Below, piece by piece: positions 17,291-64,000 of a DNA stretch of 64,000 nucleotides. The stretch lies in assembly GCA_034430895.1 (NCBI GenBank), contig DAOUDW010000087.1, positions 4,408-68,407 of the forward strand, given 5' to 3'. This DNA is from Anaerolineales bacterium. Lineage in GTDB: Bacteria; Chloroflexota; Anaerolineae; Anaerolineales; E44-bin32. A program made the translations under genes and the position numbers. Numbering within the stretch: position 1 is the first letter of the stretch; each line of letters begins with the position of its first letter. The notes beneath the pieces are model-generated. The model ran no database searches, was not told the DNA's origin, and saw only the letters and a list, made by a program, of their open reading frames with translations.

Positions 17291-17293
17291 GGG

Positions 17294-17917: not shown

Positions 17918-18003
17918 AAATCCACCACCTTTAGATTTTTTTAGGGATTATTTTGTCTTTCATCTAATAAAATAGTAACTAGAAAAAATCGACCATGTAA
18001 AAA

Positions 18004-28404: not shown

Positions 28405-28626
28405 ATGGCACGCCAGGTTTGGCAGGTTCTTAAAACCAAACACTGTGAACGCATCGGCGAGATCGCTTCGTTGGAAGTACATCTCATCTTCCCGGCCGAT
28501 ATCCTGCCGGACCAGGGGCCGCGGGTGATCGGCCATCGCTGCTCACACGGTTTGCGCTGCAATCAACTCGATTCGCCCACCTGCCAGTGGGCAGGGACGC
28601 TGCCGGGTTACGATCCTTTCTGTTAA
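28405..28626 (+). CDS. 73-aa Cys4 protein of unknown function (copy 2)
   Basis: Differs from copy 1 at 3 of 73 residues. The shared upstream block tttcatagtattacggtgtaaatc is also duplicated. Confidence 0.55.
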   Translation: MARQVWQVLKTKHCERIGEIASLEVHLIFPADILPDQGPRVIGHRCSHGLRCNQLDSPTCQWAGTLPGYDPFC

Positions 28627-39196: not shown

Positions 39197-39223
39197 CCTG
39201 TAGGGGGGAAAAACCTCATCCGG
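39197..39223 (-). repeat. interspersed repeat copy (inverted orientation) upstream of the giant gene
   Basis: cctgtaggggggaaaaacctcatccgg is the reverse complement of 55190-55215 at 24 of 26 positions. It merges into the palindrome GAAAAACCTCA-TCCGGA-TGTAGTTTTC. Confidence 0.6.
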
Positions 39224-39493
39224 ATGTAGTTTTCTATGCTATACGATATTTAGGGTAGCTGAAGGTTCAAGATGGTTATGATAATGTCAGTTGTAGAAAC
39301 ATAAGGAGCGGAACCCACCAGATTGAGATAACACTCCGCTGAAAAATCATTCGATTTTCAAGCTCCCTCTTTTCCAATTTGTTATCCAAAAAAACAATAA
39401 CATTCCAGCCCGTTCGACGCAAGGAAAGCCATAACAGGGATACAAGCGTCGTTGGTTTACCGCAGGGTTACCGTTGTATTACCGTTTGGTAAC

Positions 39494-39516: not shown

Positions 39517-39836
39517 GGTGTATAAACTTGTAAGTGAGATCGGTAAAAGCAGATTTGATGAGGGTATCTTAAGTATCGTCATAAGTGCGATATCATGTGG
39601 TGTTAAGTGTCCTAGTAGGTCGATTTATCACCAAATGCTTGAATTGCCGCTCGAGTTGTTGTAATGTGATACAAGTTTCGGTATTGTTCATACATTCCCT
39701 TTCGCTGGTATTCAACAACCCAATATCCAACTCCCTGCGTGGTTAAACCATCCTTTGCGCATACCAACAAAGCCCACGATGTTCCAGGGAGATGACAGAC
39801 CTGTATCTTGAAAGTTACTGTTTCTGGAGAGGAAAA

Positions 39837-42800
39837 ATGTCCATGTCCCGCACAACCCTTACTTCTGTAATTCGCGATTTTTCACGACCGCGCTTCCGGC
39901 TTTATCGATTACGATCAGCCATTATAAAGATATTAAACGCCGGCGTAGCTGCATCCATGCTTACTTCGATGAGCGGCGTGGCTCTGGCTAGTGCAGCATC
40001 TGATGCGGATACAAACGTGGAGATTCCTCTCCCGGCCCCTTACAAGAGTATCGAAGCTCTCGTAGAGCCCAACATCGTCCAGAGTACATTCGACAGCGAT
40101 GACGAAGGATGGACGATCGTCGGTGATGGGGACGGTCCGACATATAACGCCACCGGTGGCAATCCGGGTGGGTACATCAGCTCTACAGACCAAGCGTCAA
40201 GCGAATATTGGTATTGGCAAGCCCCGGCGAAATTCCTCGACGATCAATCCGCTGCATATGGCAGAACACTGAGCTTCGACCTTGTCCAAAGCGTCACCGA
40301 TGACCAGGATGATCAAGATGACGTTGTCCTGGTGGGAGATGGTATCACGCTTGTATTTGACACTTCATATAACCCGGGAGATACGTGGACGCATTATGTG
40401 GTCACGTTACATGAAAGTGCCGGATGGCTAAATTCAAGCACAGGCCTTGCGCCATCTTCTATCGAATTCACCCAAGTTTTGACGAATCTCGAATCTCTTC
40501 TCATCCGCGGCGAGTATCGTGTTGGCGATGATACCGGCGGACTCGACAATGCTGCTTTTTCGGTACTCTGCCCAGAAACGGGGAATCTCATTGTTCCAAT
40601 TGGAACTTCGTGCTGGCTCGAGGCTGGCGAATATACATTCGACAGCATCACCGTCGAAGCTGGCGGGCTGATTTATCTCGAAGGTGATCCAGTTACCGGC
40701 GAAGGCGTCATTCTCAATTCCACGACAATCGTTGTGGAATCTGGAGGTGAGATGACCGCCACTGCGCTGGGATACCCGATCGGCCAGGGTCCGGGAGCCG
40801 GGAGCGGGACCGATAAGACGGGCGGCGGGGGACACGGCGGCTATGGAGGAAATGGGACCGAATACAATGCAATCGGCGGTGTGGGATACGGTTCGCTGTT
40901 CGAGCCCATCACGCTGGGTAGTGGCGCGGGAGATCGCCCTGAGGGTGGCACTGGAGGGGGTGCGATCCATCTCATTGTGAACGGCACACTGCAGCTGGAC
41001 GGCACGGTATTGGCCGATGGTGGTGCTGGCACCCAATACGAACGGGGTGGCGGCGCCGGTGGCAGCATCTGGATTGAGGCGGCCTCATTGGCCGGTTCGG
41101 GCCTGATCCGCACGAATGGCGGCAATGCGGGTTACATGGGCGGTGGAGGAGCGGGTGGGCGCATCGCCATCGATGCAAGCAGCAACAGCTTCACCGGATC
41201 GGTGAACGCACACGGCGGCACGGGCAACCAGGCCGGTGGTGCGGGGACAATCTACTGGACAGTGGATGATCACCTGGTGGTCGACAACGGCGGCAACAGC
41301 GGTAAGCAAACCCCCCTCGAGGAAGACGATTACGACTTCGAAAGCATCACACTCAATGGCAATGCCATCCTGCAAGTGGAAGGGGCTAACTCTTCTATCA
41401 CCCTGGACAATACAACCATCCAGGGGGATGGCACAGGCAGGCTCACTCCATTCGGGACGGCGTATGTTCCTGTTGACCTTATTATTAATGATTACACGTT
41501 GAATTTGGAAGGGCAGATGCCGGGGGTGCAGACTGTGACTGTCGAGTCGGGCGGCGGTCTGATGTTCAGGCCGGGCTCACAGTTCTACTCTGGCTCGTAT
41601 GCCTTCCAGTCTATTGAGGTGAGAGACGGCGGCAAATTGTATGCATACCCGTATATCGCGGGTGGCGGGGTTTATTCGAATGATTATGGCCTCACGCTCG
41701 AGGTCGGGAACCTGACCGTCGATGCTGGTGGTGAGGTTACAGCCACCGGGTTGGGATACCCGATTGGGCAAGGACCGGGAGTCGGGAGTGGAAGCGATGA
41801 CACGGGTGGTGGGGGACACGGTGGTCTGGGAGGAAATGGAATTGAAGCCAATGCAACGGGTGGTGGGGCATACGGGTCGCTTTTCGAGCCCATCACGCTA
41901 GGCAGTGGCGCGGGTAATGTAGGACAGGGGGGGAGCGGAGGGGGCGCGATCCATTTACTGGTGAGCGGCACACTGCAGCTGGATGGCACAATATCTGTCG
42001 ATGGTGGTTCTTCTACCCAATACGAACGGGGAGGCGGCGCCGGTGGCAGTATCTGGGTCGAAGCGGCATCCTTTACCGGGACGGGTTTGATTCGCGCCAA
42101 TGGTGGCAATGGAGGCACACAGGGTGGTGGTGGTGGCGGCGGGCGCATTGCCATCGATGCAAGCAGCAACAGCTTCACGGGCTCGGTGAACGCGAGTGGC
42201 GGTACAGGGAACGAGAGAGGTGGGTTTGGTACGATCTACTGGACGGTGGACGATCATCTGGTGATCGACAATGGCGGGGTCAATGCTAGACCATCTGTTA
42301 TCGTCGAGGGGGATTATGATCTCAATCTCATCACGCTCAGTGGCAATGCTATCCTGCGGGTGGAAGGTGCCAGCTCATCCATCACTCTTGATAACACAAC
42401 CGTTCAAGGAGATGGTACAGGTAGACTGATCCCATTTGGCACAGTCTTAACTCCGGCAGCTTTCACGGTTGATAACTTCGCCTTGGATTTGGAAGGAAAA
42501 TTTGATGGGGTTACGAATCTCACCGTAGGAAGCAACGGCGAATTGATCCTACGAACATATACAGCGCTTTATTCTGGAATCCACACCTTCTCCAGTGTTG
42601 ATGTGGTTTCTGCCGGGCGGCTAATATTCGTACCATACAATAATGGGGATTCCGATTACACGAACGATTCTCCATTCGAGCTGCACGTAGACACACTGAA
42701 TATTGATGCTGCCGGCATCATCACCGCTGAAGGTTCGGGGTATCCTCGCAATCAAGGTCCTGGCACGCCGACGTCAAGTGGTGGTGGCGGGGGTGGTCAC

Positions 42801-45800
42801 GGCGGGGCTGGGGGGAACGGACTTCACGGATCTGGGGGAACATCATACGGTTCCTTGTACCAACCGGTTCTATTCGGTAGTGGAGGCGCCGATGACGCAA
42901 ATGGTGCAGCATCTGGAGGCGGCGCTATTATTCTGGTCGTCGAAAATGCGATCACCGTCAATGGGATTCTTTCGGTTGATGGCGCATCAAACAGTGCCGT
43001 TAGCAGCAGTGGAAGTGGAGGTGGTGGATCGGGAGGTAGCATCTGGGTTACAGCCGATACCCTCAATGGTTCAGGCGTTGTATCCGCTGACGGTGGTAAT
43101 TCCACGAATGGCGGAGGCGGCGCGGGCGGACGTATCGCCGTCTACGCCGAGACAGTCGATCCCAACCTTTCCCTTTCCGTCATGGGAGGAGCTGGCGGCG
43201 ATCCTGGAGACCTGGGGACGACGTATTTGGGAAATCTGGATCCCACACTCTCAAGCATTACCATCGATCCGGACACTGTGCCCACCCTCGTTTCGAGTTA
43301 CGGTGAGATTAGAGTAACTTTACGCAACGAATTTGGATTGCCCATCCCTGGCAAGCCGGTATCTGTGGCCTTGATTTCTGGTGATGAAGCCTACATCAAC
43401 GATCAACTCGTGGGTTTGAATGATTTTATCGACATCGGATTGACGGATATCGATGGTAATGCGACCGGTACGATCCGCGCCGAGACCCTCGGTCTACGAA
43501 CGGTCCGAGCTCGCAGCGAGCAGGAACTCATCCTGGCTGAGGCGACCGTCGAATTTATTCCGGGGCCCTTCGATCCTGGCACATCCACGATTGATGCCAC
43601 TCCGCAGCAAGTTCCGGCTGACGGCAGTACACCGGCCAACTTGATTGTCACGACGCGTGATGCGTTTGGCAATCCTGTCCCCGGAGCTGAGGTGACCCTG
43701 ACTACTCCAAGCGGGACGCTGACCCAACCTGCAACACCTACCGATGCGAATGGTCAGACCAGCGGTACGCTGACGCACGATGCCATCGAAGCCATCACGG
43801 TTTCCGCACTTGTCGACAGCGTAATGTTTGATGACGAGGCGACTGTTGATTTTCATGGATCCGATCTGGAGGCAGATATTACTGCCCCAGACGAAGCAAT
43901 TGCCGATGGCACAGTGACGTATTCGATTACTGTGAAGAACATGGATCTGTTAACCGCGAATGGCGTGACGGCAACCCTGGAGCTTCCAGCCGAAGTAACC
44001 TATCTCTACGACAGCGCGCCCACCGATCCAACGCAAAATGGGAACGAGTTGACCTGGGAGCTGGATGCTCTGCCTCATAACAATGCAGTGTCTTTCAGCG
44101 TCACAACCGACGTCAATCCAACTGTACCCGCTGGCAGTACACTCACGGGTGTGATTAATGTAAGCACGACGTCACCGGAAGCCAACACCAGTAACAATGT
44201 AAGCAGCGACAGCACGACCATCGTCGATGCGTTCGATTTCACGGTCGCATTGATCCCCACCAGCGCCACGCTCAACATGGGTGGCGCAGCGCAGTACACC
44301 ATCCGAATTCGCAACGTCGGTTTCGTCGGTGACAGCTATGCCATCAGCGTCGATGGTCTAGATGCAAATTGGATCGAGCTTGGCGACAATGAGATCGGCA
44401 TCTCCCCGGGTGCGAGTCGAGATGTGACACTGACCATATCGCCGGACGGTTGCCAGGCGGAGGAAATCTTACCCTTCAGTGTATCCGTCCAATCCAATGG
44501 CGGCACCATCAAGACAGCCCAGGGTGAAGTATCGCTGGTACAGGTGCCGAACATCACGCTGGATAAACCGAAGGACAATTCAACATCCGGTTCTCGTTCC
44601 GTGCTCTTCAGCTGGCGCACGAATCCGACCACAACGGGCACATTGACGGTCTACCCACAGGGTCAACCTGCCGAAGCACAGACTTTCAACTCCTCTCAAG
44701 GCGCCACGCACAACATCCAGGTGGAGGATCTCGAGCGCTACGTGACCTACGAGTGGTACGTGCAGGCCGATTCGACTTGCGGTACGCAAACCAGCGCAAC
44801 ACGAACCTTCACTGTCGGCAGCGGCATTGTGTTCGTAAGCCGCAATCCTTCCTTTGAACTTGCCCGTGATTACGATCAACGTTTCTCGATCACGGTGCGC
44901 AACGATGACAGCGAGGCACACACCTTACTGGCGACGGTCCAGAATCCTTACGAGGATTTGATACTCAACTTCGTCGGCAGCGGCAGCGTAGACGAAACGA
45001 TCACACTTTCCGCAGGGCAAAGCCGCACGCTGGAACTGGTCGTGCACGCCCAGGACGCAACGAATCATGAGTACGACCTTTTGGCCGAGATCACCGCTGA
45101 TGACGGTACTTCAATTCCACTGACCGACAACACCAGCATCCATCTGACCGTGCTCTTCGAATTCGATGTGAGTGTGGTTGAGGATTCAGTTGACCCGATC
45201 ACCGGCGTGAAGACCTATACCGTCACCAACAACGGTTTGCCGATCACCGACCTCGAAATCAGCGCCGCCGATCCCACCAGCGGCGAACCGGCGCGGGTGA
45301 TGTTCTTGCCTTCGATCTCCCACGGAAAGCTCGATACTGGGGATTCAGTCACCTTCGATATGATCCCGCTTTTCGACGAACGGGATGTCGCGGGGATGAG
45401 CGCCCTACCCTCCGGCGGTAATCTGGCCTCGTATTTGCCCAACAGTGAACCGGGAATTATTAGTGCGAATCTGATCGTCGGCGGCGCTGGCCAGGAACAA
45501 GTACAGTCGTCGAATATGAGCTGCCCTTCCGGCAGCGTGCACAGCGCGCCACTGGAAGATGTGTGTTTGGAGCTCCAAAACAGCAACTGGTACTGCACCA
45601 ACAAACCGAACATCAGCATGCCTTTCTACCTGCCCTTTATCGTCGAGCAGGATCTGATCGAATCTGTCAATCTGCAGATGGATTTCCACCCAAGAAGCAA
45701 CGTTCAGGATCACACTACCAGTATCTCTTTGAACGGTGAGCTACAGGGTACGCTGGATAATATGATCCCCAACGGCACATTCTCCACGCGTGTTCCCCCC

Positions 45801-48800
45801 GACACGCTACACACCAGCGAATACGGTTCGACAGTGCAGGAACTCGAACTGAATTCGGTTCATAACAATCCGGGGCATTACGTATCCGTAGCCGATTTCA
45901 GCCTGGGCATCGGTCTTCAATCCACCACGGCGTATGTTTGCGCTGAATCTCCTGAAGATGCCAGCGAAAACGCCATGGATGCCTTCCATCTCAAGCCCTC
46001 GGAAATTGCTTCGGCCTGTGCTTCGGTCGGTATTCCTGTCGAATCGGTCTTGTCCTCCGGAGACGATTGCTGCGCAGCGTACGGCGCCACACAGGTTAAC
46101 GTGGGTGGCGAAATCAATACTCGCACGGGGGGCATGGACTATTCTTTTGTTGACATATCCATCCCCACCTCTGCTGGAACGCTTTCTTTCAAACGATGGT
46201 ATTCCACACTCACGCTCGAGGACTATGCGGATACACTAGGATATGGTTGGACTCATAGTCTGGACACGCGTCTGATCTTCCCCGACGATCCTCTCGGTCG
46301 TGAGGGTGTGGTATTGATGAAGCTGCATGCATCCAATCGCTACCAATTCACCATCGAGGATGACGGCACCTTCACACCCTTTCCTGGATTTACTGGGGAG
46401 TTGACCGCTTCCGGTGATCCGCTTACGTTTACTTACGCAACACCAGGACAATACGATTATCATTTCGACGCGGATGGGAAATTAATTTCCCGATCCGACC
46501 CTCGGGGTAACGCATTGCAATACACATATAACGCGGAAGACCGTTTAATCCGTGTCGAAGACGACAATGGGCAACGTTACCTGGAACTGGATTACGATGC
46601 ATTGGGACGAGTTAACTCGGTTCAGGATCATACAGATCGTGGCGTTACCTTTAACTACAACGCCGCCGGTGACTTGAGTTCCAGCGTCGATTTACTCGGC
46701 GGCACCTGGACCTACTTTTATGATCCTACGCTGCCGCACTACCTGTCTGAAGTGCGTGATCCCAGCGGCACCACCCTCGAACGCACGGTTTTCGATGAAC
46801 AGGGCCGCGCCGTAGAACAGTACAACGGTGAGGGCGAGTTGGCCGTGCGTCTCGAATATGAAGGTTTCGGTTCTACCAAGGTCTACGAAGCCACCGGCAA
46901 CCAGTCGATGCACGTCTACGACAGCAATGATGCCATTGAACGCCAGGAGGATCCTTTGGGTGGCCTGAACCGGCGTGAGTACGACGACAACTTCCGCCCC
47001 ACTATGATCACCGACGAGGACGGCGACACTACCCACCTGACCTGGAGCGAGGACGGCACCAACCTGACCCAGGTGATTGATGCCGAGGGCAATCCGGTCA
47101 ACCTGTCTTACGACGAAAACAACAACCTTACTTCTATTGTCGATCCGCTCGATACGGAGACCAGCTATGCCTACGACGGGTTGCTGCTGACCTCCAGCAC
47201 CGACGACGAGGGCAATACCACCAGCTACACCTACACACCTGAAGGGTATCTGCAAAGCATCACCGACGCGGCCGGAAATACGACATCTTACACTTACGAT
47301 TCTTATGGCCAACAAGTTTCGATGACCGATGCCTCAGGCAACACCTGGCTCTACCGCTACGACGATCTTGGCCGCCTGATCGAGAACGAGGATCCCAACG
47401 GCGTGATCGCACGCCGCGAGTACGACGCTGCCGGACGGATGATCCGCTCGACGCGCAACTACGATCCCGCCCGCCCGCAGAACGACGAGAACCTTTACAA
47501 CATTGTCACCGAGTACGTCTACGACGCCGTGGGCAACCAGATCGAAGTCATCGACACCTTCGGGCGTAGCACACAGTATGTCTACGACGACGCCAATCGT
47601 CTAATCCGCATGTTCGATTCCGCCGGCAACGAGACGACCAATACCTTCAACAACGCCGGGCAATTGGTTGCTACGACCGATGTCTTGGATCGCATTACAA
47701 CTTTCGTCTACGATGAACTCGGCCGCATGGTGGAGATGCACGACGCGCTGGGCAACATCACCACCACGGTTTACAACCCCGACGGCACCGTCGCCAGCAC
47801 ATCCGATGCGTTGGGAAACAGTACTTCGTATACCTACGACGACCTCAAACGCGTCGCGGCCACAACCGATGCCCTCGACGGCACGACGACCACTACCTAC
47901 GACGAGTTAGGCAACGTGATCGCCACGACGGACGCCCTGGGGAATACCACAACCTACGAATACAACTCGCTAGGCCAATTGACACACCAAACCGACCCCG
48001 AAGGTGGAAATATACAGTACGTTTACGACGAACTCGGCAACCGCATCGAGACCATCGATCCGCGCGGGAATTCGACGTTTTATGTCTACGACGATCAAGG
48101 CCGCCTGGAGACGGTCACCGATGCGCTGGGCGGTACAACGACATACACCTACGACGCCTTGGGCCGTCGCCTAGCCATTACCGATGCAGAGGATAACACC
48201 ACCAGCTACAGCTATGATGAACTCGGTCGACAGGTTTCTGTAACTGATCCGTTGGGGAACACGACTTCTACGGAATTCGATGCGCTCGGCAATGTACTCA
48301 GCCGTACGGACGCCAATGAAGAGACCACCACGTATGTTTACGACGTGCTTGGCCGACTGGAATCCCAGACCGACCCGCTAGGTGGCATTACGACCTATAC
48401 CTACGACGCCGCCAGTAACCAACTCACGGTAACCGACGCCGAAGGGCACACCACCACGACGGTCTACGACGAACTCAACCGGCCGGTCTCGGTGACTGAT
48501 CCCCTGGGAAATACAACCACCACAGCCCATGACGCCACCGGCAACGTACTCGCCACCACCGACGGCTCGGGGCAGACGATCACGTTCACCTACGACGAAC
48601 TGGGCCGCCAGGAGACGGTCACCGACCCGCTGGGCAACACGACGAGCTACGCCTACGACGCCGTGGGCAACCGCATCTCGCTGACCGACACCAACGGCGT
48701 GGTCACACGCTACGAGTACGATGGGCTGAACCGTCTCACGGCAGTGGTCGAGAACTACCTCTACGGCGCGCCAGCCGATCACGAGACCAATGTGCGTACC

Positions 48801-55357: not shown

Positions 55358-57265
55358 TCAAGGATTAAGTACTTGGAGCAACGCTGTACTTGGGCTTGGT
55401 TTATCAGGATCCTGTGCTTCAAAAACTTGTTGTTCATTAGCAATACTAATTGGACACCGTTCCCAGAGGTTATGACGAGCGAGGAATGAGTCAAATTGCA
55501 TGCCCGAAGCACCAACATCAATACGCCTCAATTCATATGGACCATACGCATCAATCCCCTTTTCGGCCCACAATTTCCATACTTTTTCTGTCCAGACGAG
55601 GCCATTTCCATGTCGTTCCCATGTATCCCACCAATCTGTTAGTTTCAAGGTGATTTCAGGTCCATAAATGCCTTCGAACTTCATAGGTAGACAGTGAGGG
55701 TCATTATATTCGAAGAGTTGCATTCGCTCCTCTACAAGTTCCAGAAGTTCTTTCTTCTTAACGCGTAGAATGTCAAGCGTGGGTTTATTGAAAACGACAG
55801 CGTATTCACCTACTGCTTGATCACCACCTACCATGTCATCTGGATCTGAAACTTTTCTTACAACGAGAAATGGGCAGTTTTCATAAAGATTGTGTTCAAT
55901 ACTCCAGATTTGTTTTCTAAGTTCAATAATCGCCATCGTATTTACATATAAGCTAACAGCTATGTTAAGTTCGAGGTCGACATTCAAAAGCTTTTTTAAT
56001 GTCTGTTCATATGCTCGCATATATCCATATGCCATATTTATATTAATGAGACCAGGGTTGACCTCCATTGAATTGTGCACATGCATTTCAGAAAATATTG
56101 GGATATTCTCCACATCTGCAGGCCATTTGCCAAACTCTGGCTTTATCTCATTAGCCGTTATTTCAGCTGATTGGGTGTCCATGAGACGATAGAGAATCTT
56201 GACCATATTCGAGTTATGGTAGCTGCCCGCTGGCTCCCTTAATGGCTCCTCAGGTCCAGCTAATATTGAAATAACACGCTCTGCTCCAAGCTCAAGAGCA
56301 GCCCTTATGGGGAGTACGTCTCTCACTCCTCCGTCTACAAAATGTCCATCCTTATATGGATCAGCCCGTAAATCTTTCGCTTCATAAATACAAGGGATCG
56401 AAGATGACGCGATAGTACCTTGGACAAGGGCATCCTTAATAGTACCCATCCCATTCTCTGCATCCAACTGCCAAGACACTTCGGGCGTATTGGCATTTCC
56501 TTTAATAAGTCTTGCATCTTCGGTCACATACCATGTCTGGGCATCCTCGAGACACACTGTCGCAAGACGCATCTTAATGTAAGGTGTGAGAGATGTACCA
56601 AACTTGTTAAAATCAACTTTCGCCTTTATTAATTCCTCTATTGGCTTGAGTGTGTAAAGGCTAGGAGCTGAAAAGAATAGGTTTATTACCTTTAAAATCT
56701 TTCCCAGCATATCTGTTAAGTCCTCAATCACACCAACGGCCAAGGTCCCGAAGGATAATATATTCAAAAGTACAAAACCGGCACCAACACCGGGAAGTTC
56801 AGGCTCACCCCCATTCACCCCTCCTGTCTCAATAACTTGGTCTATATCCACATTGAGATCATCTAATATTTGAAGTATCTCTCCGATGTTTTTATGCGGA
56901 AGGTACATGTCATTTTCACTCTGAAGGGAAAGAAATAAACTGACGAGATCCTTGACGCCCTTATAGCCAGATTCCGCAATTTTAAGGGCCATAATTGCTC
57001 CTACTGAAGTTCCACAGACATATCTCAAATTGATCTTTTTCCAAATATCAGATCTCGTAAGATAATCTAGAGCACCTACTTCGAAACTTCCTTTGGAGCC
57101 TCCACCAGAAAGTACTAATGCAGTGGCTGGGACATTATCATCTACATGTCCGAAATGTCTTTTCTTCAGGTCTAGCGGATCAAGTCCTGGACGCTCAGGC
57201 TCCTCAACAGGAATTTCACCTATTGGTACAATTTCGTGATCCCTTTCTGGGTCTAGGTCAGGCAT
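55358..57265 (-). CDS. patatin-like phospholipase with large C-terminal extension
   Basis: Oxyanion LVLSGGGSKGSFEVGAL, nucleophile elbow GTSVGA, and catalytic Asp FVDGGVRD. ATG at 57265 follows GGGGAG. About 300 aa after the catalytic domain have no recognisable motif. Confidence 0.85.
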   Translation of the reverse strand: MPDLDPERDHEIVPIGEIPVEEPERPGLDPLDLKKRHFGHVDDNVPATALVLSGGGSKGSFEVGALDYLTRSDIWKKINLRYVCGTSVGAIMALKIAESGYKGVKDLVSLFLSLQSENDMYLPHKNIGEILQILDDLNVDIDQVIETGGVNGGEPELPGVGAGFVLLNILSFGTLAVGVIEDLTDMLGKILKVINLFFSAPSLYTLKPIEELIKAKVDFNKFGTSLTPYIKMRLATVCLEDAQTWYVTEDARLIKGNANTPEVSWQLDAENGMGTIKDALVQGTIASSSIPCIYEAKDLRADPYKDGHFVDGGVRDVLPIRAALELGAERVISILAGPEEPLREPAGSYHNSNMVKILYRLMDTQSAEITANEIKPEFGKWPADVENIPIFSEMHVHNSMEVNPGLININMAYGYMRAYEQTLKKLLNVDLELNIAVSLYVNTMAIIELRKQIWSIEHNLYENCPFLVVRKVSDPDDMVGGDQAVGEYAVVFNKPTLDILRVKKKELLELVEERMQLFEYNDPHCLPMKFEGIYGPEITLKLTDWWDTWERHGNGLVWTEKVWKLWAEKGIDAYGPYELRRIDVGASGMQFDSFLARHNLWERCPISIANEQQVFEAQDPDKPSPSTALLQVLNP

Positions 57266-57529
57266 CAGGCTCCCCTTTCTTTCTTTATCTTCGAAGATAA
57301 TAAGTAAATGTGTGAAGTAGGTTGAAAAATTAAAAACCCGACTTAAGATGAGTCGGGCTTGCATTGCCTTTTGAAATTATGTGGCTTCCCCCGACACCAC
57401 ACTATTGTTAGTTACACTAAGACAAAATACTATGTGTCAATATTATACAGGATGTAGATTTGGGATTCAACTTCTGTGATGATGCCAGATAACGAGTGGG
57501 GGACAAGTATGGCCGAACCATCAGGATAT

Positions 57530-57557
57530 CCTGTAGGGAGGAAAAACTATATCCGTG
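57530..57557 (-). repeat. interspersed repeat copy (inverted orientation)
   Basis: cctgtagggaggaaaaactatatccgtg. Confidence 0.55.
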
Positions 57558-57603
57558 TTAAAATCCGGCGCAAACTCACCCTGTAGTATGGGAATATTTT
57601 ATT

Positions 57604-57664
57604 AGGATGATGTTTTTCTACCCAACAAGGTCATTTTTATAGAACGGATGTACATTTTCGGCCA
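57604..57664 (+). repeat. interspersed repeat composite (GGATGATGTTTTTC... plus GAACGGATGTACATTTTCGGCCA)
   Basis: Same two-part architecture as 54909-54966. It overlaps the annotated start of the 57648 ORF. Confidence 0.6.
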
Positions 57665-58007
57665 TCACAATGGCTATTACGATGCCTGTGCTGTGATGAT
57701 CCGTCGACTCTTAGAAACCTTAATCATCGAATGCTATGAGGTACACAAGATCGCCGATGATATTTTGGATGCTAGTGGTGACTTTGTGAGATTGGATAAG
57801 CTTATCGATTGCTTCCTCTCTCAAAAGGAATGGAACATAGGCCGCGACACAAAAAAGCAGTTGAAGAAACTACCATCAATCAAAGGCGTTGGAGATCGAT
57901 CTGCCCATAATAGACGATATATAGCTTCAAAAGATGATATTGATCGAATTGCTGATGATACTAGGTTAGCTATACAGGAACTAGTATCTATTGCATTCGA
58001 AAAGTGA
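57648..58007 (+). CDS. DUF4145/HEPN-like domain protein (possibly N-terminally truncated)
   Basis: GYYDACAVMIRRLLETLIIE and IKGVGDRSAHN resemble the DUF4145 blocks (aca...R.llE / lR..GN.aaH). The start codon lies inside a repeat that also occurs at 54943. Confidence 0.45.
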   Translation: MYIFGHHNGYYDACAVMIRRLLETLIIECYEVHKIADDILDASGDFVRLDKLIDCFLSQKEWNIGRDTKKQLKKLPSIKGVGDRSAHNRRYIASKDDIDRIADDTRLAIQELVSIAFEK

Positions 58008-58136
58008 AATACCTTGAAACAATTTCCAAGGTATTCTAAGTGCTAAGTACAAGTGATCAGTTATTTTCGATAAATAGTCGAAGTGCTCTAAGCCTTATCA
58101 TTGCCTCGTGCCGTATTGCTCAGCGAGGGCATTCAT

Positions 58137-59312
58137 TTACAATTGATTGTGTTCTTCACTGTCTGTGTATATGTACTGCTTACGATAACTTTCCCTCAAC
58201 TCATCGATAACCAGTAATTCATTATCTTCTGACGCAAAATACCAGTTCTGCCACCCATTGCATGGACTACCACCCATCAAATGCTTTCCCGCTTGATGGA
58301 TTGAACCCTCAAACCCATCTGAAAGCCGAAGTTTTCCATCTGGTTTAATAAAGGCATTTCTTGCACGATCCTTCTGGAAAAATAGCTGCTGCCCTGGCAG
58401 CAAATAATTTGTTTCAAGCAAATTCGCAAAACCAACACGCGGGGCTAAGCGTTTTTTATCGCTTACATCAAACACATCATCAGCCCGTGGCTCGGATAGC
58501 ATCGGTTTTACGTCATCAATTCGTTTTTTAGCAATCTTGATGTAGTCTCTGTCCTGCTCAATCCCAATCCAATGGCGGTGAAGCTTCTTTGCTACGGCTC
58601 CTGTTGTACCAGTTCCAAAAAATGGATCCAAGACAATATCTCCCTTTTGTGTCGATGCAATTAAGACACGAAATAACAAGGCTTCTGGTTTTTGAGTTGA
58701 GTGGGCTTTCTTGCCACCCTTTTTTTTGATTCTCTCAGCTCCTGAGCAGATTGGTAAAACAAATTGTCTCGGAATTGGCCAGTCACTGCGAAGCTGTTTT
58801 CCTTCATTAAACTCTTTCATCGCATGATGATTGAATGAATATTTTGCACCTTTTGATTTGCTAGCCCATATTAGCGTTTCATGGGCATTCGTCAAACGAA
58901 CTCCTCGGAAATTTGGCATAGGATTCGTTTTAATCCAAACTACGTCATTTAAGATCCAATAACCCAAGTCTTGGATGATTTTCCCAATTCGATATATATT
59001 GTGATAAGTTCCTATCACCCAAATAGTTCCTGTATCCTTTAGTACCCGCTTGCATGCGTTTAACCACTTTTTACTAAAGAGGTCGTATTCACCATTGTTT
59101 TCAAACTGATCCCATGAATCATTTACAGCGTCAACTTGCGTCATATTAGGACGCCATAATTCGTTTTGTAGCTGAAGATTGTATGGAGGATCGGCGAAAA
59201 CGAGATCAACAGAGCTTTCGGGAAGAGAGTTCAGTACCTCAATACAATCCCCTTGGATTATCTGATCTACTGGCAATTCGTTTTTCATAATGATTTTAGT
59301 AATACCTGTCAA
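58137..59312 (-). CDS. beta-class N6-adenine DNA methyltransferase, CcrM/M.HinfI family
   Basis: Motif IV VFADPPYNL precedes motif I DPFFGTGTTGAVA (beta-class order). The C-terminal RVGFANLLE...LPGQQLFF...PDGKL...GSIHQAGKHL...CNGWQNWYF is the CcrM-type extension. Confidence 0.85.
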   Translation of the reverse strand: MTGITKIIMKNELPVDQIIQGDCIEVLNSLPESSVDLVFADPPYNLQLQNELWRPNMTQVDAVNDSWDQFENNGEYDLFSKKWLNACKRVLKDTGTIWVIGTYHNIYRIGKIIQDLGYWILNDVVWIKTNPMPNFRGVRLTNAHETLIWASKSKGAKYSFNHHAMKEFNEGKQLRSDWPIPRQFVLPICSGAERIKKKGGKKAHSTQKPEALLFRVLIASTQKGDIVLDPFFGTGTTGAVAKKLHRHWIGIEQDRDYIKIAKKRIDDVKPMLSEPRADDVFDVSDKKRLAPRVGFANLLETNYLLPGQQLFFQKDRARNAFIKPDGKLRLSDGFEGSIHQAGKHLMGGSPCNGWQNWYFASEDNELLVIDELRESYRKQYIYTDSEEHNQL

Positions 59313-60171
59313 TTCTTTCTAACAATGATTTTGCTAGATTCTGATACTCATCAGATTTCTGCTTAGAAAAATGGCCAAACAACAACATCAGGGTCGTCCC
59401 CTCGCTGAATAATACACGAATAATACCATCAGCCCAAATCTGTTCATTCGATATCAGTTTTCTCCAATAATGTAGCCGGATTGATTTGATATCTTCGAAA
59501 CTCTCTCGTGGTGATGCATCGAGATCAATTTCAGGAAAGTCATCGAGCTCCCTCCTCCAATCTGTTAGCCAAGATACAAATTCGAACCAAACTGTAGGGA
59601 AACTTAGGTATGTGAACAAATCCTTTCCATAGAACAGGTACAGGTCTAGGCCGTAAATATCCTTTAATTTGTCCAATTGCTCCTGGTAGAACGATTTGCT
59701 TTTTGAAAAGGCTGGATCAACAAAGTACATGATGCCGATTAGATTCTTATGATGCTCTTGGTAGAGCCGATCTAGTTTCTCCTCGAAATTCTTTATCTGA
59801 CCACGCTTCTTTGTTGAGTCATGATCATCCCGCATTTTTTGCTCAATAAAGAAGTGTTTTTTTCCTTTCGCGAAGTATTGATCCAATGATAGCGATGTTT
59901 TATCATCGATGTTGAGAACAAGATCAAGGTTAGTATATCCTTGCTCCGCAAGGATTTCTCGCAGCAATAGTTCAATAGCATCCCCGAACCGAATCTCGTG
60001 AGATTGCAATAGATTTTGAATTATCTTCGCCCGAGGCTTCGTCGGTCGAAAATCACCCAGGTATCTCTCCGGATTCAAAGCAAGTTTCTCAATAATGTTT
60101 ATCTTATCGGCTTCGAATACCTGAGAGTGCAGAAGCCTTATTGCTTTCTTGGAATCCATTCCTAACCCCAC
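59296..60171 (-). CDS. uncharacterised protein, candidate PD-(D/E)XK restriction endonuclease partner of the methyltransferase
   Basis: SLDQYFAKGKKHFFIEQKMRDDHD gives a D-x13-E-x-K arrangement. The gene overlaps the methyltransferase by 17 nt and the upstream gene by 10 nt. Confidence 0.4.
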   Translation of the reverse strand: MGLGMDSKKAIRLLHSQVFEADKINIIEKLALNPERYLGDFRPTKPRAKIIQNLLQSHEIRFGDAIELLLREILAEQGYTNLDLVLNIDDKTSLSLDQYFAKGKKHFFIEQKMRDDHDSTKKRGQIKNFEEKLDRLYQEHHKNLIGIMYFVDPAFSKSKSFYQEQLDKLKDIYGLDLYLFYGKDLFTYLSFPTVWFEFVSWLTDWRRELDDFPEIDLDASPRESFEDIKSIRLHYWRKLISNEQIWADGIIRVLFSEGTTLMLLFGHFSKQKSDEYQNLAKSLLERIDRYY

Positions 60172-60971
60172 GGGATTTTAATGTACCGATGGAGCTTCGT
60201 GCTCCCGATGTTCTCTAATAGCCAGATCTCATCCTCATCAGGTGTTGATTCAGTAATTGCCTTGACAAAAAGGACTAGGAATAGTTGATCGAGCTTTCTA
60301 TGGTATTCTTGTCTATCTTCCTCGTATGGAAAAATGAACCTCACGATGGCAGTTGTCTCATCAACCAGATACGCCTTCCCTTTCTTCTTTGCAGCTTCAG
60401 CTTTGGTTAATACTCCGTCGCCAGTTCGAAATCGGCCTCCAACATGCGAGACAGAGTATCCCCAGAACAGGTCACTTGCTTCGCGAGCAACCCGCTTGTA
60501 GTAATCCGGTATGGATTCGCCATCTTCAAATTCATAAATTGGCGTCAAATCATCAAGATTGGTAGCCTCAAGCCTCTCAATGAGCGTATCTTCGTAAAAG
60601 AGATTATCCAAATTCTGCCGCAGCAGATTCTCATTTCGTAGAGGAAGGTAAAAATCGTAGATCTTTACTAGGTCATGTATTACATGATTATATTTGGAGA
60701 ATATCTGATTTTTCTGCCGGAAGAGATCACGAAAATCAGCCAGCAAGATTAATTTAATATTTCGATCAACATAATACTTCCTGTCAACCATTAAGGTTCC
60801 TGGCTCGAACTTGTCTACAAGGAATTCTCTGATTCTCTTGGAAATATTCGTGGACAAATTCTTTTGTGACCAACCTGTGTAATTTAACAATTCGCGGAAT
60901 ATTATCTCATTTCCTGCTTGCGCTTGGAGATATTCATAACACTTATCGATCTTTCGGAAATTCCTTGGCAT
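60162..60971 (-). CDS. hypothetical protein (269 aa), first gene of the methyltransferase operon
   Basis: Long AT-rich ORF with an N-terminal HTH-like segment (IIFRELLNYTGWSQKNLSTNISKRIREFL). No family recognised by eye. Confidence 0.45.
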   Translation of the reverse strand: MPRNFRKIDKCYEYLQAQAGNEIIFRELLNYTGWSQKNLSTNISKRIREFLVDKFEPGTLMVDRKYYVDRNIKLILLADFRDLFRQKNQIFSKYNHVIHDLVKIYDFYLPLRNENLLRQNLDNLFYEDTLIERLEATNLDDLTPIYEFEDGESIPDYYKRVAREASDLFWGYSVSHVGGRFRTGDGVLTKAEAAKKKGKAYLVDETTAIVRFIFPYEEDRQEYHRKLDQLFLVLFVKAITESTPDEDEIWLLENIGSTKLHRYIKIPWG

Positions 60972-61130
60972 TAGAAATCCTTTCGGCCAATGTCAATGAT
61001 TTGCCTAGGTGTAACCCGGCCTTGATTAAATTAACCCCACTTTCAATACCGATAATAAACTAGCACTAGGCAAATCTGGTTATTTCCTGGGTAGGATTTA
61101 GCAAGTTCTATCACGACGAGCTCTTATCTC

Positions 61131-61859
61131 TTAGAGAATGAAATCAGTATCAGTTTTTAGTGATTCATGTTCGTAATCTTTAGCAAGAGATTCATAATCA
61201 TAAAATGCAATCCGCTCAGAGATTGAATGAAAGGCGGTACGATTTACTTTATCGTGGAATTCGCGACGTCGAGAAGAATGAGCAACGATGATCAAACGAG
61301 TATTGAAGTCTTGAAGATCAAAAAATTTCAGTAATGAATTCTGGAAGTCAGTTGAATGTTCAATTTCGAATAAGCTATGAGGCATATGTCGATTATTAAA
61401 CCAACTTACATCGATTGTCGATGCACGCTTAACTAAGTCCTTATAAGTGAATATCGGGATCTTCTGTAAACTCCTAATTTCTTGAAGATGACAATTTAGA
61501 CAAAGCTTGTTCTTGTCCTGATTTGGTATGAATGTAGAATAGCCTCGCAAATTTCCAAGAGTAGCCAATAGCCCCTGATAATACGAGTGACTTAAAGTAA
61601 TAGACTCTTTCGACAAATCGATCTCATTATCTTCAGAGAAAAGTCCTAAACGACTTCGATATGACTCCAATGCCCAAAGACCTGGTCGAACCTTGAATAT
61701 CTCAGGTCTAACTTGAACAATGCGCCTTATTGAAGCATGTGGAGTTTTGGTTCTCCATTCAACCCCAGGAACCTTTAATGCTTCCCTATATAGCTGGGCT
61801 AAAGTGGCTTGACCGCCAAGACGATCTAATGTTTGAATAACTGCCTCATACTGCTTCAT
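61131..61859 (-). CDS. winged-helix (Mrr_N/HARE-HTH-like) plus nuclease-like C-terminal domain protein
   Basis: N-terminus MKQYEAVIQTLDRLGGQATLAQLYREAL...RPGLWAL. C-terminus IDVSWFNNRHMPHSLFEIEHSTDFQNSLLKF is a D...E-x-E/H arrangement seen in restriction-fold proteins. Confidence 0.5.
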   Translation of the reverse strand: MKQYEAVIQTLDRLGGQATLAQLYREALKVPGVEWRTKTPHASIRRIVQVRPEIFKVRPGLWALESYRSRLGLFSEDNEIDLSKESITLSHSYYQGLLATLGNLRGYSTFIPNQDKNKLCLNCHLQEIRSLQKIPIFTYKDLVKRASTIDVSWFNNRHMPHSLFEIEHSTDFQNSLLKFFDLQDFNTRLIIVAHSSRRREFHDKVNRTAFHSISERIAFYDYESLAKDYEHESLKTDTDFIL

Positions 61860-62134
61860 ATTTATAGATTGTACATTACGACAAGGTGAAATACGGATTG
61901 TCGTCGTATGGTTTTGAACTTCCAAGTTATGTGCTTATGATAGGGAGGTCCTCGCCATAAATACCAACCGCTAACCAAGTATATATAAATCATTCCCCTT
62001 TGCTATATAGATATTTCCAAATTGACGGGTTAATGTATCCTCGGAGGTGTTATGTCGAAATTTTACATAGCATACACTTTCATGCATGCGTAATCAAGCG
62101 GCCATCTATTTTGACACTTTTCTTTCGAGAGTTT

Positions 62135-62306
62135 TATAAAGCATAATATGGCCGGATTACTGGGGAAACTCAGCTTGAAAGCTCTTAGAAATAAAGCATA
62201 ATGTGGCCGAAAGTGCAAAAATAAAGCACAAGCTGGCCGTAAGTTCTTTAAACATCCTTTTCGTCAATACCGATTCTACACGGACAAGGTTTTTCCACCC
62301 TACAGG
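62135..62306 (+). repeat. iteron-containing repeat unit U3 (direct repeat of U1)
   Basis: Iterons at 62135, 62190 and 62221 have the same spacing as in U1, followed by ACACGGACAAGGTTTTTCCACCCTACAGG. Confidence 0.75.
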
Positions 62307-62333
62307 TCATACCTTATAAAGGCTCTATTGGAT

Positions 62334-62483
62334 ATGGCAAATGTGAAAGACCTTCCAAGCTCAGTCGTTTGGCAACACTTGACGCGAACTACTCTACTTT
62401 ATGCTCGAGGGGAATCTGATATTGTGATTTCGTGCTACAAGAAACCTTTCGCTGCGATGATCCCGTTTCGGGATGGATTATGA
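62334..62483 (+). CDS. 49-aa Phd/YefM-like antitoxin fragment (not in the ORF track)
   Basis: MANVKDLPSSVVWQHLTRTTLLYARGESDIVISCYKKPFAAMIPFRDGL* resembles the Phd/YefM N-terminal fold pattern (ge.vvIt..gkpvAvliP). It is followed by an overlapping 10-codon stub. Confidence 0.35.
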   Translation: MANVKDLPSSVVWQHLTRTTLLYARGESDIVISCYKKPFAAMIPFRDGL

Positions 62484-62662
62484 AAACGGTCAGATTTTGC
62501 ATTACAAAGTAAGAAACGCGAGGACGGGAGCAAAATCCAACTGACCTGCCGTTAAAGAATATGCGAAATCCTTTCGGGGTCTCTGAGTCCCTTGCAATTG
62601 ATCGAAAAACCTATTTGATATATGCTTGGTACAGCTTTAATGACATTATTTCTTTTTGCAGT

Positions 62663-63277
62663 CTAGATTATTTAACACTTCAATATTATTACATTCCTTA
62701 TCTTAACCGCTGGATCCAGCCCGATACTATTTTACCTAATCCCACCAATCCGCAAAGTTATAACAGATACACATATGTGTATAACAATCCGATCCGATAT
62801 AACGATCCAACTGGGCATTATGTTCCAGCAGAGGTTTGTGCAATGGGTGGGGCAAATATACCCCATTGTAATTCTAAAACAGGTAGTTATTTTTACACTG
62901 GTCTTAACTCCGACTTAGAGTCAACAGACTGGGAAGATAGATATGGAGGACCTCTTGCAAAGAAGACATATGATCTGATATCACGTAATTATTATATTTG
63001 GGGAAGGGAAGGGTCAGAGGAGATCGAGAAAGGATTGGGTGAATATCCACCTCCGTTATTCGATATATCAAAATGGAATGGGTTTCGAGAAATAGTTACG
63101 GCTTTCAAGTTGGGCAGTCAACCAATCATGTGCCCAGATCTCTATATACTCGGATTAGATTCCTTGGGTATAAGTTGTATGTCCTCAAAACATTTGAGAC
63201 AAAACAGGCATTTCACTAAGAGAGTCTTTTCAGCCCCGATCTACACTGGAGTATACACCCTCTCCCGCATGGCATGA
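62663..63277 (+). pseudogene. orphan Rhs core-end plus alternative toxin tip, 3' end replaced by IS sequence
   Basis: LDYLTLQYYYIPYLNRWIQPD...NRYTYVYNNPIRYNDPTGHY aligns with RARYYIPWQSRFMSKD...ANDAPITSFDPTGHY of the main gene, and an unrelated tip follows. The ORF end overlaps the transposase gene. Confidence 0.7.
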
Positions 63278-64000
63278 GCCCTGCGACGCTTCTCCATGGT
63301 TCTCCGTTTGATCTCTTCTCTCCGATCCAGCACCTCCTTTTCACGGCCAAAATAGACATCGGCTGGCGTCAAATTGTCCAGCGCTTCATGATATCGACCA
63401 TTGTTGTAGTAGTCCACGAACGCCGCTATGGCGTTATTCAGGTCCGATGGAGAGTAGTAGTTCTCCAGCAGGACGACATTTTTCATCGAACGATGCCAAC
63501 GCTCGATCTTGCCCTGCGTCATCGGATGATATGGAGCACCGCGCACATGATCCATATGCTTGCGTTTGAGAAACCGCTCCAGATCTTTCGAAAGATAGGC
63601 TGGACCGTTGTCCGAGAGCAAACGCGGCCGGTGCCGCACACGGGCTGTTTCCAGCCCAGTTCGCTCAAGCGCCAGCTTCAAGGTTTCTTCGACGTCTTCT
63701 GCTCCCATGCTGGACGACAGCCTCCAGGCGATGATGTAGCGGGAGTAATCGTCCAGGACGGTGGACAGGTAATACCAGCCCCAGTGATTGAAAACCTTGA
63801 AATGGGTGAAATCGGTCTGCCACAGTTCATGCACCCGCCGAGTGGGTTTCTCGAACTTCTCCCGGGCGGGCACCATCTGGAACACCGGGCTCTGGATCAA
63901 GTCAAAGCTCTTCAGAATGCGGTATACGCTGGATTCCGAGACGAAATAGCCCTGCAGATCGGTGAATAGCCAGGCGATCTGCCTTGGAGATTTCTCCGGA
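63241..64000 (-). mobile_element. rve-type DDE transposase gene (IS3/IS481-like), 5' end beyond the window
   Basis: WQTDFTHF, LSTVLDDYSR and LLSDNGPAY...YHPMTQGKIERWH (D, D, E region). The frame stays open to nt 64000 (…SPRQIAWLFTDLQGYFVSESSVYRILKSFDL). Confidence 0.85.

What the first reader, a model, noticed from the sequence alone, without database searches (positions are those of the whole stretch)
62334..64000. Orphan Rhs tip cassette 8 kb downstream of the main gene, truncated by an rve-type IS
62663-63277 encodes the last 50 residues of an Rhs core (YYYIPYLNRWIQPD...NNPIRYNDPTGH) fused to a tip unrelated to the main tip. It has no shell and no credible start. This is the classic orphan module that can replace the main tip by recombination.

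Its 3' end runs into the terminus of a transposase gene (63241 to beyond 64000, opposite strand), so the tip and any immunity gene are probably destroyed. A Phd/YefM-like 49-codon ORF (62334-62483) plus a 10-codon stub lie just upstream. They look like the remains of a toxin-antitoxin pair.
Basis: partly seen in the sequence, partly recalled or inferred. Interest (0 to 1): 0.65.

Follow-up and report, generated by a model that had tools for sequence, protein, structure and literature searches.

The report
Dead orphan Rhs toxin fragment
This is a leftover end-piece of a bacterial Rhs toxin gene, cut off on its 3' side by an insertion sequence, with no immunity gene and no usable similarity to the big Rhs gene nearby, so it is an ordinary relic and not a spare toxin tip.

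Summary
The core observation holds. Window 62543-62818 encodes the end of an Rhs core. It reaches NCBIfam TIGR03696 above its cut-off and ends in DPTGH. A unique tip follows, and the frame runs into an IS on the opposite strand.

Several details change:
- The IS is a 1524-bp IS3-family element at 63176-64699. It starts 65 nt before the transposase stop. The last 33 codons of the 238-aa ORF are therefore IS inverted-repeat sequence, and only 119 tip codons (62819-63175) survive.
- A second-sample contig shows that the far side of the IS carries the last 74 codons of a BREX brxL gene. It carries neither the rest of the tip nor an immunity gene. No target duplication is visible, so the IS marks a rearrangement.
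- The tip proper has no homologue among 1.84 billion representative proteins.
- The orphan shares 41% amino-acid identity over 46 residues with the main gene's core end, and no DNA word longer than 12 nt. GC is 36% against 53-59%. Tip replacement by homologous recombination with this main gene is not credible.
- The "Phd/YefM-like" ORF matches nothing.

The fragment lies between direct copies of a roughly 200-bp transposon-end repeat, in a mosaic island.

The parts
62111..62306 (.). D1b: a ~200-bp repeat directly upstream of the small ORF. It holds three 17-nt half-sites AAAGCATAAnnTGGCCG and ends in the 33-nt motif TTCTACACGGACAAGGTTTTTCCACCCTACAGG. I read it as a solo transposon end.
   Evidence: 84% identical to 54518-54685. 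Half-sites: 7 found against 0.15 expected. The same end occurs in Chloroflexota MAGs and as the TIR of a 211-bp MITE in Nostoc plasmids.
62328..62483 (+). There is no support that it is a gene or an antitoxin.
   Evidence: No hit in Pfam (E up to 10) or NCBIfam, only a noise-level PHROGs match (E=0.23), nothing above noise in PDB, and no homologue in 5.8 billion clusters.
62480..62512 (+). 10-codon stub MKTVRFCITK*. It is in the same frame as the orphan ORF, and its TAA is the stop that opens the orphan reading frame.
   Evidence: Read from the sequence. In-frame stop at 62510.
62543..62818 (+). Rhs core-end homology: a degenerate PFG...YTGQ-like part, then the well-conserved last 44 codons, 62687-62818.
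   Evidence: tblastn with relatives P0020 and P0021 starts at 62564 and 62543. TIGR03696 scores 36.7 bits against a 32.5 cut-off. BLASTP to the main gene gives E=7e-9. 30 homologues are listed, the top hit being the window's own protein; the relatives named by a source are called RHS repeat-associated proteins, and the one with an organism label is from Anaerolineaceae.
62804..62818 (+). DPTGH, the motif that ends the Rhs core and marks the start of the tip.
   Evidence: Invariant D82, G85 and H86 in alignment A2. The same motif is in the main gene.
62819..63175 (+). Surviving tip-specific sequence: 119 codons of unknown function, cut at its 3' end by the IS.
   Evidence: No Pfam, NCBIfam, PHROGs or PDB hit. 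phmmer against 1.84e9 representatives gave only two hits, both in the IS-derived tail. AlphaFold2 single-sequence model has pLDDT 29.5.
63176..63277 (+). Last 33 codons and stop of the annotated 238-aa ORF. These are encoded by the terminal inverted repeat of the IS and are not tip sequence.
   Evidence: The IS edge was fixed by aligning with an independent related copy, L027. The same peptide tail occurs in P0120 and P0121, which read into other IS copies.
63176..64000 (-). IS3-family insertion sequence. It is 1524 bp in full and continues to window-equivalent 64699. Termini are TGTA...TACA with ~64-nt imperfect inverted repeats. OrfB occupies 63241 onward on the minus strand. OrfA and an A7G slippery site lie beyond the window.
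   Evidence: Pfam rve, rve_3 and HTH_Tnp_1. NCBIfam transpos_IS3 scores 177.9 against a 160 cut-off. Full element seen in L001 937-2460. No target-site duplication at either copy.
39792..54269 (+). Main rhs gene (4825 aa), listed for reference. Its core end is 53256-53387 and its tip is 53388-54269.
   Evidence: 27 RHS repeats, DUF6531, 12 CarboxypepD_reg domains. TIGR03696 scores 61.7 bits. GC is 59% in the shell, 53% at the core end and 40% in the tip.
54488..54687 (.). D1a: the first copy of the same repeat, 219 nt after the main gene's stop. It starts with the terminus TGTCACTT.
   Evidence: Nearly identical copy, with the same left edge, in an Anaerolineales MAG (L005).

Best explanation
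The region holds a non-functional relic of an Rhs C-terminal module.

Anatomy:
- About 92 codons of Rhs core end are present. The upstream half is degenerate.
- The DPTGH boundary motif follows.
- Then come 119 codons of a tip with no known relatives.
- The tip is cut at 63176 by a 1524-bp IS3-family element.

History, as far as it can be read:
- The other flank of the IS is the last 74 codons of a BREX brxL gene.
- No target-site duplication is visible.
- I infer that the IS mediated, or was left at, a deletion or recombination that removed the 3' end of the tip, any immunity gene and most of brxL.

Relation to the main gene:
- The fragment is foreign to the neighbouring 4825-aa rhs gene. Its GC is lower, protein identity in the shared core end is only 41%, and there is no DNA homology.
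- It therefore cannot swap into that gene by homologous recombination.
- It is not a recently displaced former tip of that gene.

Setting:
- It sits in a mosaic island of mobile-element debris and defence genes downstream of the main gene.
- It lies between direct copies of a transposon-end repeat.

Shown: the anatomy, the IS limits, the identity of both flanks, and the lack of homology. Inferred: the order of events and the lack of expression.
For: - Rhs core end.
- IS limits come from two independent copies, and the ORF tail is IS-derived.
- The right flank starts exactly at BrxL residues LVVLGEMS. It is 85% identical to BrxL C-termini, matches TIGR02653 positions 600-673 of 675, and matches Lon_C profile positions 135-192 only. 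No Lon similarity lies left of the junction.
- The IS is present in all three contigs that reach it (the window, L001, L002), which come from at least two metagenome samples.
- No tip homologue anywhere.
- No DNA homology to the main gene, and a GC contrast.
- No immunity-sized ORF between the tip and the IS.
- Flanking repeats and the gene content of 54.3-62.1 kb (patatin, DUF4145, N6_N4 methylase with RAMA).
Against: - An in-frame ATG at 62561 exists, and gene callers annotate the ORF.
- The 205 codons up to the IS are free of stops, so decay is recent or the frame was maintained until the IS event.
- Another full-length rhs gene elsewhere in the same genome, outside the window, could share its core end with this fragment. 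I could not see the rest of the genome. The best core-end relative in the databases is 74-80% identical in protein over a match covering only 18-19% of the query, and every relative found is a short ORF.
- Precise excision of the IS gives an in-frame 279-aa ORF. I treat this as a one-in-three coincidence.
Confidence: 0.8

Rival explanations
1. One reading: a classic silent orphan rhs-CT module held in reserve. It would replace the main tip by homologous recombination in the shared core region, as in Salmonella LT2.
For: Same strand and downstream of a full-length rhs gene. It retains the core end and the DPTGH motif. Orphan arrays do exist in related genomes (L022).
Against: The shared region is 41% identical in protein. 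The longest shared DNA word is 12 nt and lies at a non-homologous site. The LT2 case has 95% identity over 522 bp. The tip is truncated and no immunity gene is present. 8.3 kb of unrelated genes and two transposon-end repeats lie in between.
Confidence: 0.05
2. The fragment is the end of a second full-length rhs gene that once stood here. Its 5' shell was deleted and its 3' end was cut by the IS. On this view it did not arrive as a short orphan module.
For: Both edges are abrupt. The upstream edge at about 62543 sits next to unrelated sequence and a transposon-end repeat. The island shows other truncated genes: the brxL tail and a remnant DUF4145 start at 54916.
Against: The 5' limit, a few codons before the PFG motif, matches where many short RHS-associated ORFs of relatives begin (alignment A2; L022 array). 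That fits the usual orphan-module boundary. No shell remnant is detectable upstream in any frame.
Confidence: 0.12
3. The 238-aa ORF, or the 279-aa ORF restored by IS excision, is an expressed stand-alone protein. It might be an internally initiated Rhs-CT acting like a toxin-antitoxin-type toxin, as reported for Salmonella orphan Rhs (PMC7043789, abstract only).
For: ATG at 62561. A long open frame. A promoter-like site, TTGAAA-16-CATAAT, lies in D1b at 62175-62202.
Against: The C-terminus is IS sequence or an unrelated BrxL tail. There is no immunity gene and no Shine-Dalgarno-like sequence. The core part upstream of residue 43 is degenerate. Promoter-like sites are no more frequent than in shuffles: 6 found against 3.8 expected.
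Confidence: 0.03

Closest known systems
Orphan rhs-CT modules of Enterobacteria, for example Salmonella LT2 STM0292 (PMC3967940; PMC3150448)
   Same: A shell-less fragment that keeps the end of the Rhs core and the boundary motif, followed by a distinct tip. It lies downstream of a full-length rhs gene on the same strand.
   Different: There is no cognate immunity gene. The tip is truncated. There is no near-identical core segment: LT2 has 95% over 522 bp, whereas here there is 41% protein identity over 46 residues and no DNA homology. It is separated from the main gene by 8.3 kb of unrelated genes.
Arrays of short RHS core-end ORFs, each followed by a small ORF (two of them Imm32), in a 5.7-Mb genome that encodes a relative of the orphan (locus L022)
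   Same: The same type of core end (YDPYLNRWIQPD...DPTGH; 77% DNA identity over 125 nt). The ORFs are short, with 5' limits similar to the orphan's.
   Different: There, each module is intact and followed by a small putative immunity gene (Imm32 and others). Here there is a single module, cut by an IS, with no partner gene.
IS3-family insertion sequences
   Same: OrfA (HTH_Tnp_1) and OrfB (rve DDE) overlap with an A7G slippery site. Termini are TG...CA with imperfect inverted repeats. NCBIfam IS3 score is above its cut-off.
   Different: No 3-4-bp target duplication is visible at either of the two copies examined. OrfB also scores high on the IS481 model, at 211.6 bits, just below that model's 224 cut-off.
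E. coli Rhs elements with H-rpt/ISAs1 insertion sequences downstream of the core extensions (from my own knowledge, not checked here)
   Same: IS elements and truncated tip fragments accumulate downstream of rhs genes.
   Different: A different IS family and a different phylum (Chloroflexota). The main gene looks Sec-dependent (N-terminal signal-like sequence, read) and not T6SS-linked.

Membership tests
Orphan Rhs C-terminal (rhs-CT) module | Contains the end of the RHS repeat-associated core with the boundary motif (DPxGx) | tested here: met
   TIGR03696 scores 36.7 bits against a 32.5 cut-off, profile positions 37-76 of 76. DPTGH at 62804-62818. E=7e-9 to the main gene.
Orphan Rhs C-terminal (rhs-CT) module | Lacks the YD shell and N-terminal delivery region | tested here: met
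   No Rhs similarity upstream of about 62543 in any frame. In-frame stop at 62510.
Orphan Rhs C-terminal (rhs-CT) module | Variable tip distinct from the main gene's tip | tested here: met
   No alignment beyond the core end. The tip has no homologue at all.
Orphan Rhs C-terminal (rhs-CT) module | Cognate immunity gene immediately downstream | tested here: not met
   The tip runs straight into the IS at 63176. Beyond the IS lies a brxL 3' remnant.
Orphan Rhs C-terminal (rhs-CT) module | Near-identical core segment shared with a full-length rhs gene, allowing recombination (LT2: 95% over 522 bp) | tested here: not met
   Against the main gene in the window: 41% protein identity over 46 residues, longest shared DNA word 12 nt. 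Other rhs genes of the genome could not be examined.
IS3 family | Two overlapping ORFs (HTH OrfA, DDE rve OrfB) with a -1 frameshift motif | tested here: met
   L001 OrfA 2000-2368 and OrfB 1002-2012 on the minus strand. AAAAAAAG lies in the overlap region.
IS3 family | Imperfect terminal inverted repeats ending 5'-TG...CA-3' | tested here: met
   TGTATGTCC... and ...GCTACA. The inverted repeats align over about 64 nt.
IS3 family | 3-4-bp target-site duplication | tested here: not met
   Flanks are AGT|CTG in L001 and CCG|AGT in L027.
Phd/YefM antitoxin | Match to the PhdYeFM_antitox profile or to a known member | tested here: not met
   No Pfam hit at E up to 10. No NCBIfam hit. No PDB relative. 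No homologue at all.
BrxL (BREX Lon-like protease), for the flank beyond the IS | Full-length protein with BrxL_N, ATPase and Lon_C domains (~675 aa) | tested here: not met
   Only TIGR02653 positions 600-673 of 675 are present. It is a 74-codon remnant.

The most novel reading that the evidence does not exclude
The orphan fragment and the brxL tail may be cargo remnants inside a tandem series of decayed copies of an undescribed transposon family.
- The family has ends of the multi-site type: terminus TGTCACTT followed by several 17-nt sites AAAGCATAAnnTGGCCG.
- It occurs in Chloroflexota. In Nostoc it occurs as a 211-bp MITE.
- In two Chloroflexia loci one end sits about 30 nt from tRNA-Arg.
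- Here, three same-orientation ends follow the giant rhs gene.

If true, this element family would be a vehicle that moves polymorphic-toxin tips and defence genes in Chloroflexota.
Probability: 0.25. Interest if true: 0.5.

Novelty: new member of a known kind. Interest (0 to 1): 0.22.

Why it matters
The finding itself matters little. Truncated orphan Rhs tips next to insertion sequences are a well-known form of debris around rhs genes, and this one is dead.

Two points are useful:
- It shows that "orphan downstream of an rhs gene" does not imply a recombination-ready spare part. The test is DNA identity with the core, and here it fails.
- The tip of 119 surviving residues has no relative among 1.84 billion representative proteins. 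Chloroflexota Rhs loci therefore hold toxin diversity that is not yet catalogued.

The flanking transposon-end repeats are the part that may deserve separate study.

Tried and rejected
1. A 9-bp direct repeat, CTACACTGG, at "both IS junctions". I first read it as a target duplication and rebuilt a pre-insertion sequence from it. Alignment with an independent IS copy showed that the left copy lies inside the IS. The idea and the BrxL "continuity through S-T-L" drawn from it were dropped.
2. The tip as a Lon-like domain. Precise IS excision fuses the tip in frame to the BrxL tail. However, Lon_C and BrxL similarity starts exactly at the junction, and real BrxL C-termini match 70 further profile positions. 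Rejected as coincidence.
3. The many short Lon_C hits as a conserved end of a mobile element. Context look-ups showed brxL genes called as several adjacent short ORFs (L023, L026), plus one lone remnant present in two contigs (L024, L025). Rejected.
4. D1 as the arms of an integrase attP site. This was suggested by the integrase and tRNA-Arg context in L006. The Nostoc MITE with perfect terminal inverted repeats fits a transposon end better. Left open.
5. Structure prediction of the ORF. pLDDT was 29.5, so no fold search was done.
6. Rfam scan of 38-64 kb found nothing relevant.
7. Phd/YefM was tested with Pfam, NCBIfam, PHROGs, PDB, BLASTP and a homologue search, all negative.
8. The repeat block was searched in phage genomes with no match.

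Full report
**What is at the coordinates**

The window carries a 4825-aa Rhs protein gene at 39792-54269 (+). It has Laminin_B/G8, Big_1, DUF11 and DUF6531 domains, 27 RHS repeats, 12 tandem CarboxypepD_reg domains and an RHS-associated core.

About 8.3 kb downstream on the same strand lies ORF 62561-63277 (238 aa).
- Its residues 43-88 align with the main gene's core end at 41% identity, E=7e-9.
- Residues 43-86 reach NCBIfam TIGR03696, Rhs_assc_core, at 36.7 bits against a cut-off of 32.5, covering profile positions 37-76 of 76.
- Both proteins end the core with DPTGH. After that motif they are unrelated.
- A homologue search returned 30 proteins of 220-395 aa, the top hit being the window's own protein. 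The relatives that a source names are called RHS repeat-associated proteins, and the one with an organism label is from an Anaerolineaceae MAG. Similarity to the query is confined to the core end.
- tblastn with these relatives shows that Rhs similarity starts at about 62543, so about 92 codons of core survive. The first half is degenerate and carries indels.
- Nothing Rhs-like lies further upstream in any frame.
- The 205 codons up to the IS are open in 39%-GC DNA, with a chance of about 9e-7.

**The 3' end**

Two short contigs from other JGI samples carry the identical ORF. One of them, L001 (3059 nt), matches the window from 62240 with three mismatches and runs 1.3 kb past the window end.

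L001 shows a complete IS:
- OrfB has HTH, rve and rve_3 domains.
- OrfA has HTH_Tnp_1.
- An AAAAAAAG site lies in the overlap region.
- The NCBIfam IS3 score is 177.9 against a cut-off of 160.

An exhaustive phmmer search of the tip against 1.84 billion representatives gave only two hits. Both are tiny ORFs that share just the last 24-38 residues. Both read into other copies of the same IS.

Aligning L001 with one of these independent copies, L027, fixes the element:
- It spans L001 937-2460, which is window 63176-64699, or 1524 bp.
- Its termini are TGTA...TACA, with about 64 nt of imperfect inverted repeats.
- The last 33 codons and the stop of the "238-aa protein" are therefore IS sequence.
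- Only residues 87-205 (62819-63175) are tip.
- Neither IS copy shows a target duplication.

**What lies beyond the IS**

The right flank begins exactly with LVVLGEMS. It encodes the last 74 residues of a BREX BrxL protease.
- It matches TIGR02653 positions 600-673 of 675 at E about 1e-20.
- It is 85% identical to BrxL C-termini.
- It matches Lon_C profile positions 135-192 only.

Precise excision of the IS would fuse the tip and this tail in frame. No Lon similarity exists left of the junction, whereas genuine BrxL C-termini match 70 more profile positions. I take the shared frame as coincidence.

The IS thus separates two unrelated truncated genes. The rest of the tip and any immunity gene are not on the other side. 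The simplest reading is an IS-mediated deletion or recombination. This step is inferred, not shown.

**Can it replace the main tip?**

In Salmonella LT2 the main and orphan genes share 95% identity over 522 bp, and recombination there makes the chimera (PMC3967940). The situation here is different.
- The DNA alignment of the two core ends shows only scattered matches.
- The longest word shared with the main gene is 12 nt, and it lies at a non-homologous position.
- GC is 36% in the orphan's core end, 53% in the main gene's core end and 59% in the main shell.

The fragment is therefore foreign to this main gene and cannot recombine with it by homology. I could not examine other rhs genes of the genome.

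**The upstream ORFs**

The 51-codon ORF (62328-62483) has no match in Pfam (E up to 10), NCBIfam or PDB, and only a noise-level PHROGs match (E=0.23).

The 10-codon stub (62480-62512) is in the same frame as the orphan ORF. Its stop codon is simply the stop that opens that frame.

The toxin-antitoxin reading has no support.

**Setting**

A roughly 200-bp repeat, which I call D1, occurs at three places:
- 54488-54687, which is 219 nt after the main gene's stop.
- 62111-62306, directly upstream of the small ORF.
- After the brxL remnant, at L001 about 2962-3059.

All three copies are in the same orientation. D1 holds three or four 17-nt sites, AAAGCATAAnnTGGCCG; the window has 7 such sites against 0.15 expected.

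The same block occurs elsewhere:
- In Chloroflexota MAGs and metagenome contigs.
- In two of those loci, next to tRNA-Arg. One has a tyrosine integrase gene just inside the block.
- In Nostoc plasmids, as the terminal inverted repeat of a 211-bp MITE: TGTCACTTAAAGGATAAnGTGGCCG ... CGGCCACTTTATCCTTTAAGTGACA.

I read D1 as a solo end of a transposon family.

Between D1a and D1b lie a patatin gene, a DUF4145 gene, an N6_N4 methylase with a RAMA domain, and three ORFs with no significant family match. The orphan therefore sits in a mosaic of mobile-element debris and defence-type genes.

**Comparator**

A 5.7-Mb genome encoding one of the orphan's relatives has a genuine array of four short core-end ORFs, each followed by a small ORF such as Imm32. 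That is what an intact version looks like in a related genome. The window's copy lacks the partner gene and the end of its tip.

**Verdict**

This is a real but dead orphan Rhs fragment. It is a new member of a known kind and of low interest. The transposon-end repeats are the more unusual feature and are only partly resolved.

Noticed in passing
window 54488-54687, 62111-62306; third copy at L001 ~2962-3059 (window-equivalent ~65201 onward): Three same-orientation copies of a ~200-bp repeat with 17-nt sites AAAGCATAAnnTGGCCG and terminus TGTCACTT. The same end occurs in Chloroflexota MAGs and, as 25-nt terminal inverted repeats of a 211-bp MITE, in Nostoc plasmids (L029 8003-8213). It looks like solo ends of an undescribed transposon family. 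No inverted partner is in the window.
   Followed up: partly
L006 14-1448; L015 ~170-420: In Chloroflexia loci the opposite end of the same element (several direct sites plus one inverted site forming a palindrome) lies about 30 nt from the 3' end of tRNA-Arg(CCT). In L006 a tyrosine integrase gene ends 6 nt before the first site. In L003, L008, L010, L013 and L014 this end abuts the next element's TGTC... end head to tail.
   Followed up: partly
window 39197-39299 and 55127-55216: Imperfect inverted repeats of about 100 nt (local score 66 against a shuffle maximum of 23) bracket a 16-kb segment holding the whole main rhs gene and D1a. Their outer 33 nt (CCTGTAGGGGGGAAAAACC...) recur at 54654, 54847, 55183, 57530(-), 57596 and 62273.
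   Followed up: partly
window 57530-57630: A ~100-nt unit with the 33-nt motif at both ends in inverted orientation. It looks like a MITE and lies just upstream of the DUF4145 gene.
   Followed up: no
window 49500-52550: Twelve tandem 246-nt (82-aa) CarboxypepD_reg-like domains are inserted in the main Rhs protein between the bulk of the YD repeats and the last YD repeat plus core. This is an unusual architecture for an Rhs protein.
   Followed up: partly
window 53100-54487: GC falls from 59% in the shell to 40% in the tip across the main gene's core end, so the main tip itself looks exchanged. No immunity-sized ORF lies between the main stop (54269) and D1a (54488).
   Followed up: partly
window 55358-61925: The 7.6-kb interval between D1a and D1b carries a patatin-like phospholipase, a DUF4145 gene, an N6_N4 DNA methylase with a RAMA domain, and three ORFs with no significant family match (one has only a sub-threshold HARE-HTH-like N-terminus). 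The content looks like a defence island.
   Followed up: partly
L012 (Ga0307439_1009991), oriented copy 78-2392: In another sample the same locus has different sequence left of the 264-aa (sub-threshold HARE-HTH) ORF that precedes D1b. Two overlapping ORFs of 516 and 341 aa replace the window's 60162-60971 ORF. By eye the larger one looks like an IS21-type IstA, but it was not checked against any family library. It suggests population-level rearrangement or IS polymorphism.
   Followed up: no
window 63967, 63984, 63988: Three mismatches between the window and L001 cluster inside the IS, while 1.7 kb of flank is identical. This suggests several slightly different IS copies in the population or assembly.
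   Followed up: no
window 12779, 14960, 54916, 57614: The motif GAACGGATGTACATTTTCGGCCA, which includes the start codon of the DUF4145 gene at 57648, recurs four times. The copy at 54916 heads only a 45-codon remnant.
   Followed up: no
window 15013-18221: Three tandem ~1.1-kb repeats (77-92% identical), each with a ~210-aa ORF on the minus strand. They form a paralogous gene triplet of unknown function.
   Followed up: no
window 9147-9357, 12464-12674, 21350-21457; 23300-23644 and 28276-28625: Further dispersed repeats of 100-260 nt at about 90% identity in the left half of the window.
   Followed up: no
window 33-1814: The first ORF is a TraG/TrwB-type coupling protein, and a DnaB-like helicase gene lies at 7116-8183. 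The left end of the window may belong to a conjugative element.
   Followed up: no
L022 7230-19581: A 5.7-Mb genome (ENA ERZ21862454) has an array of four short YD-shell/core-end ORFs, each followed by small ORFs (two are Imm32; one tip is ADPRT Tse2-like). No full-length rhs gene lies within 10 kb.
   Followed up: partly
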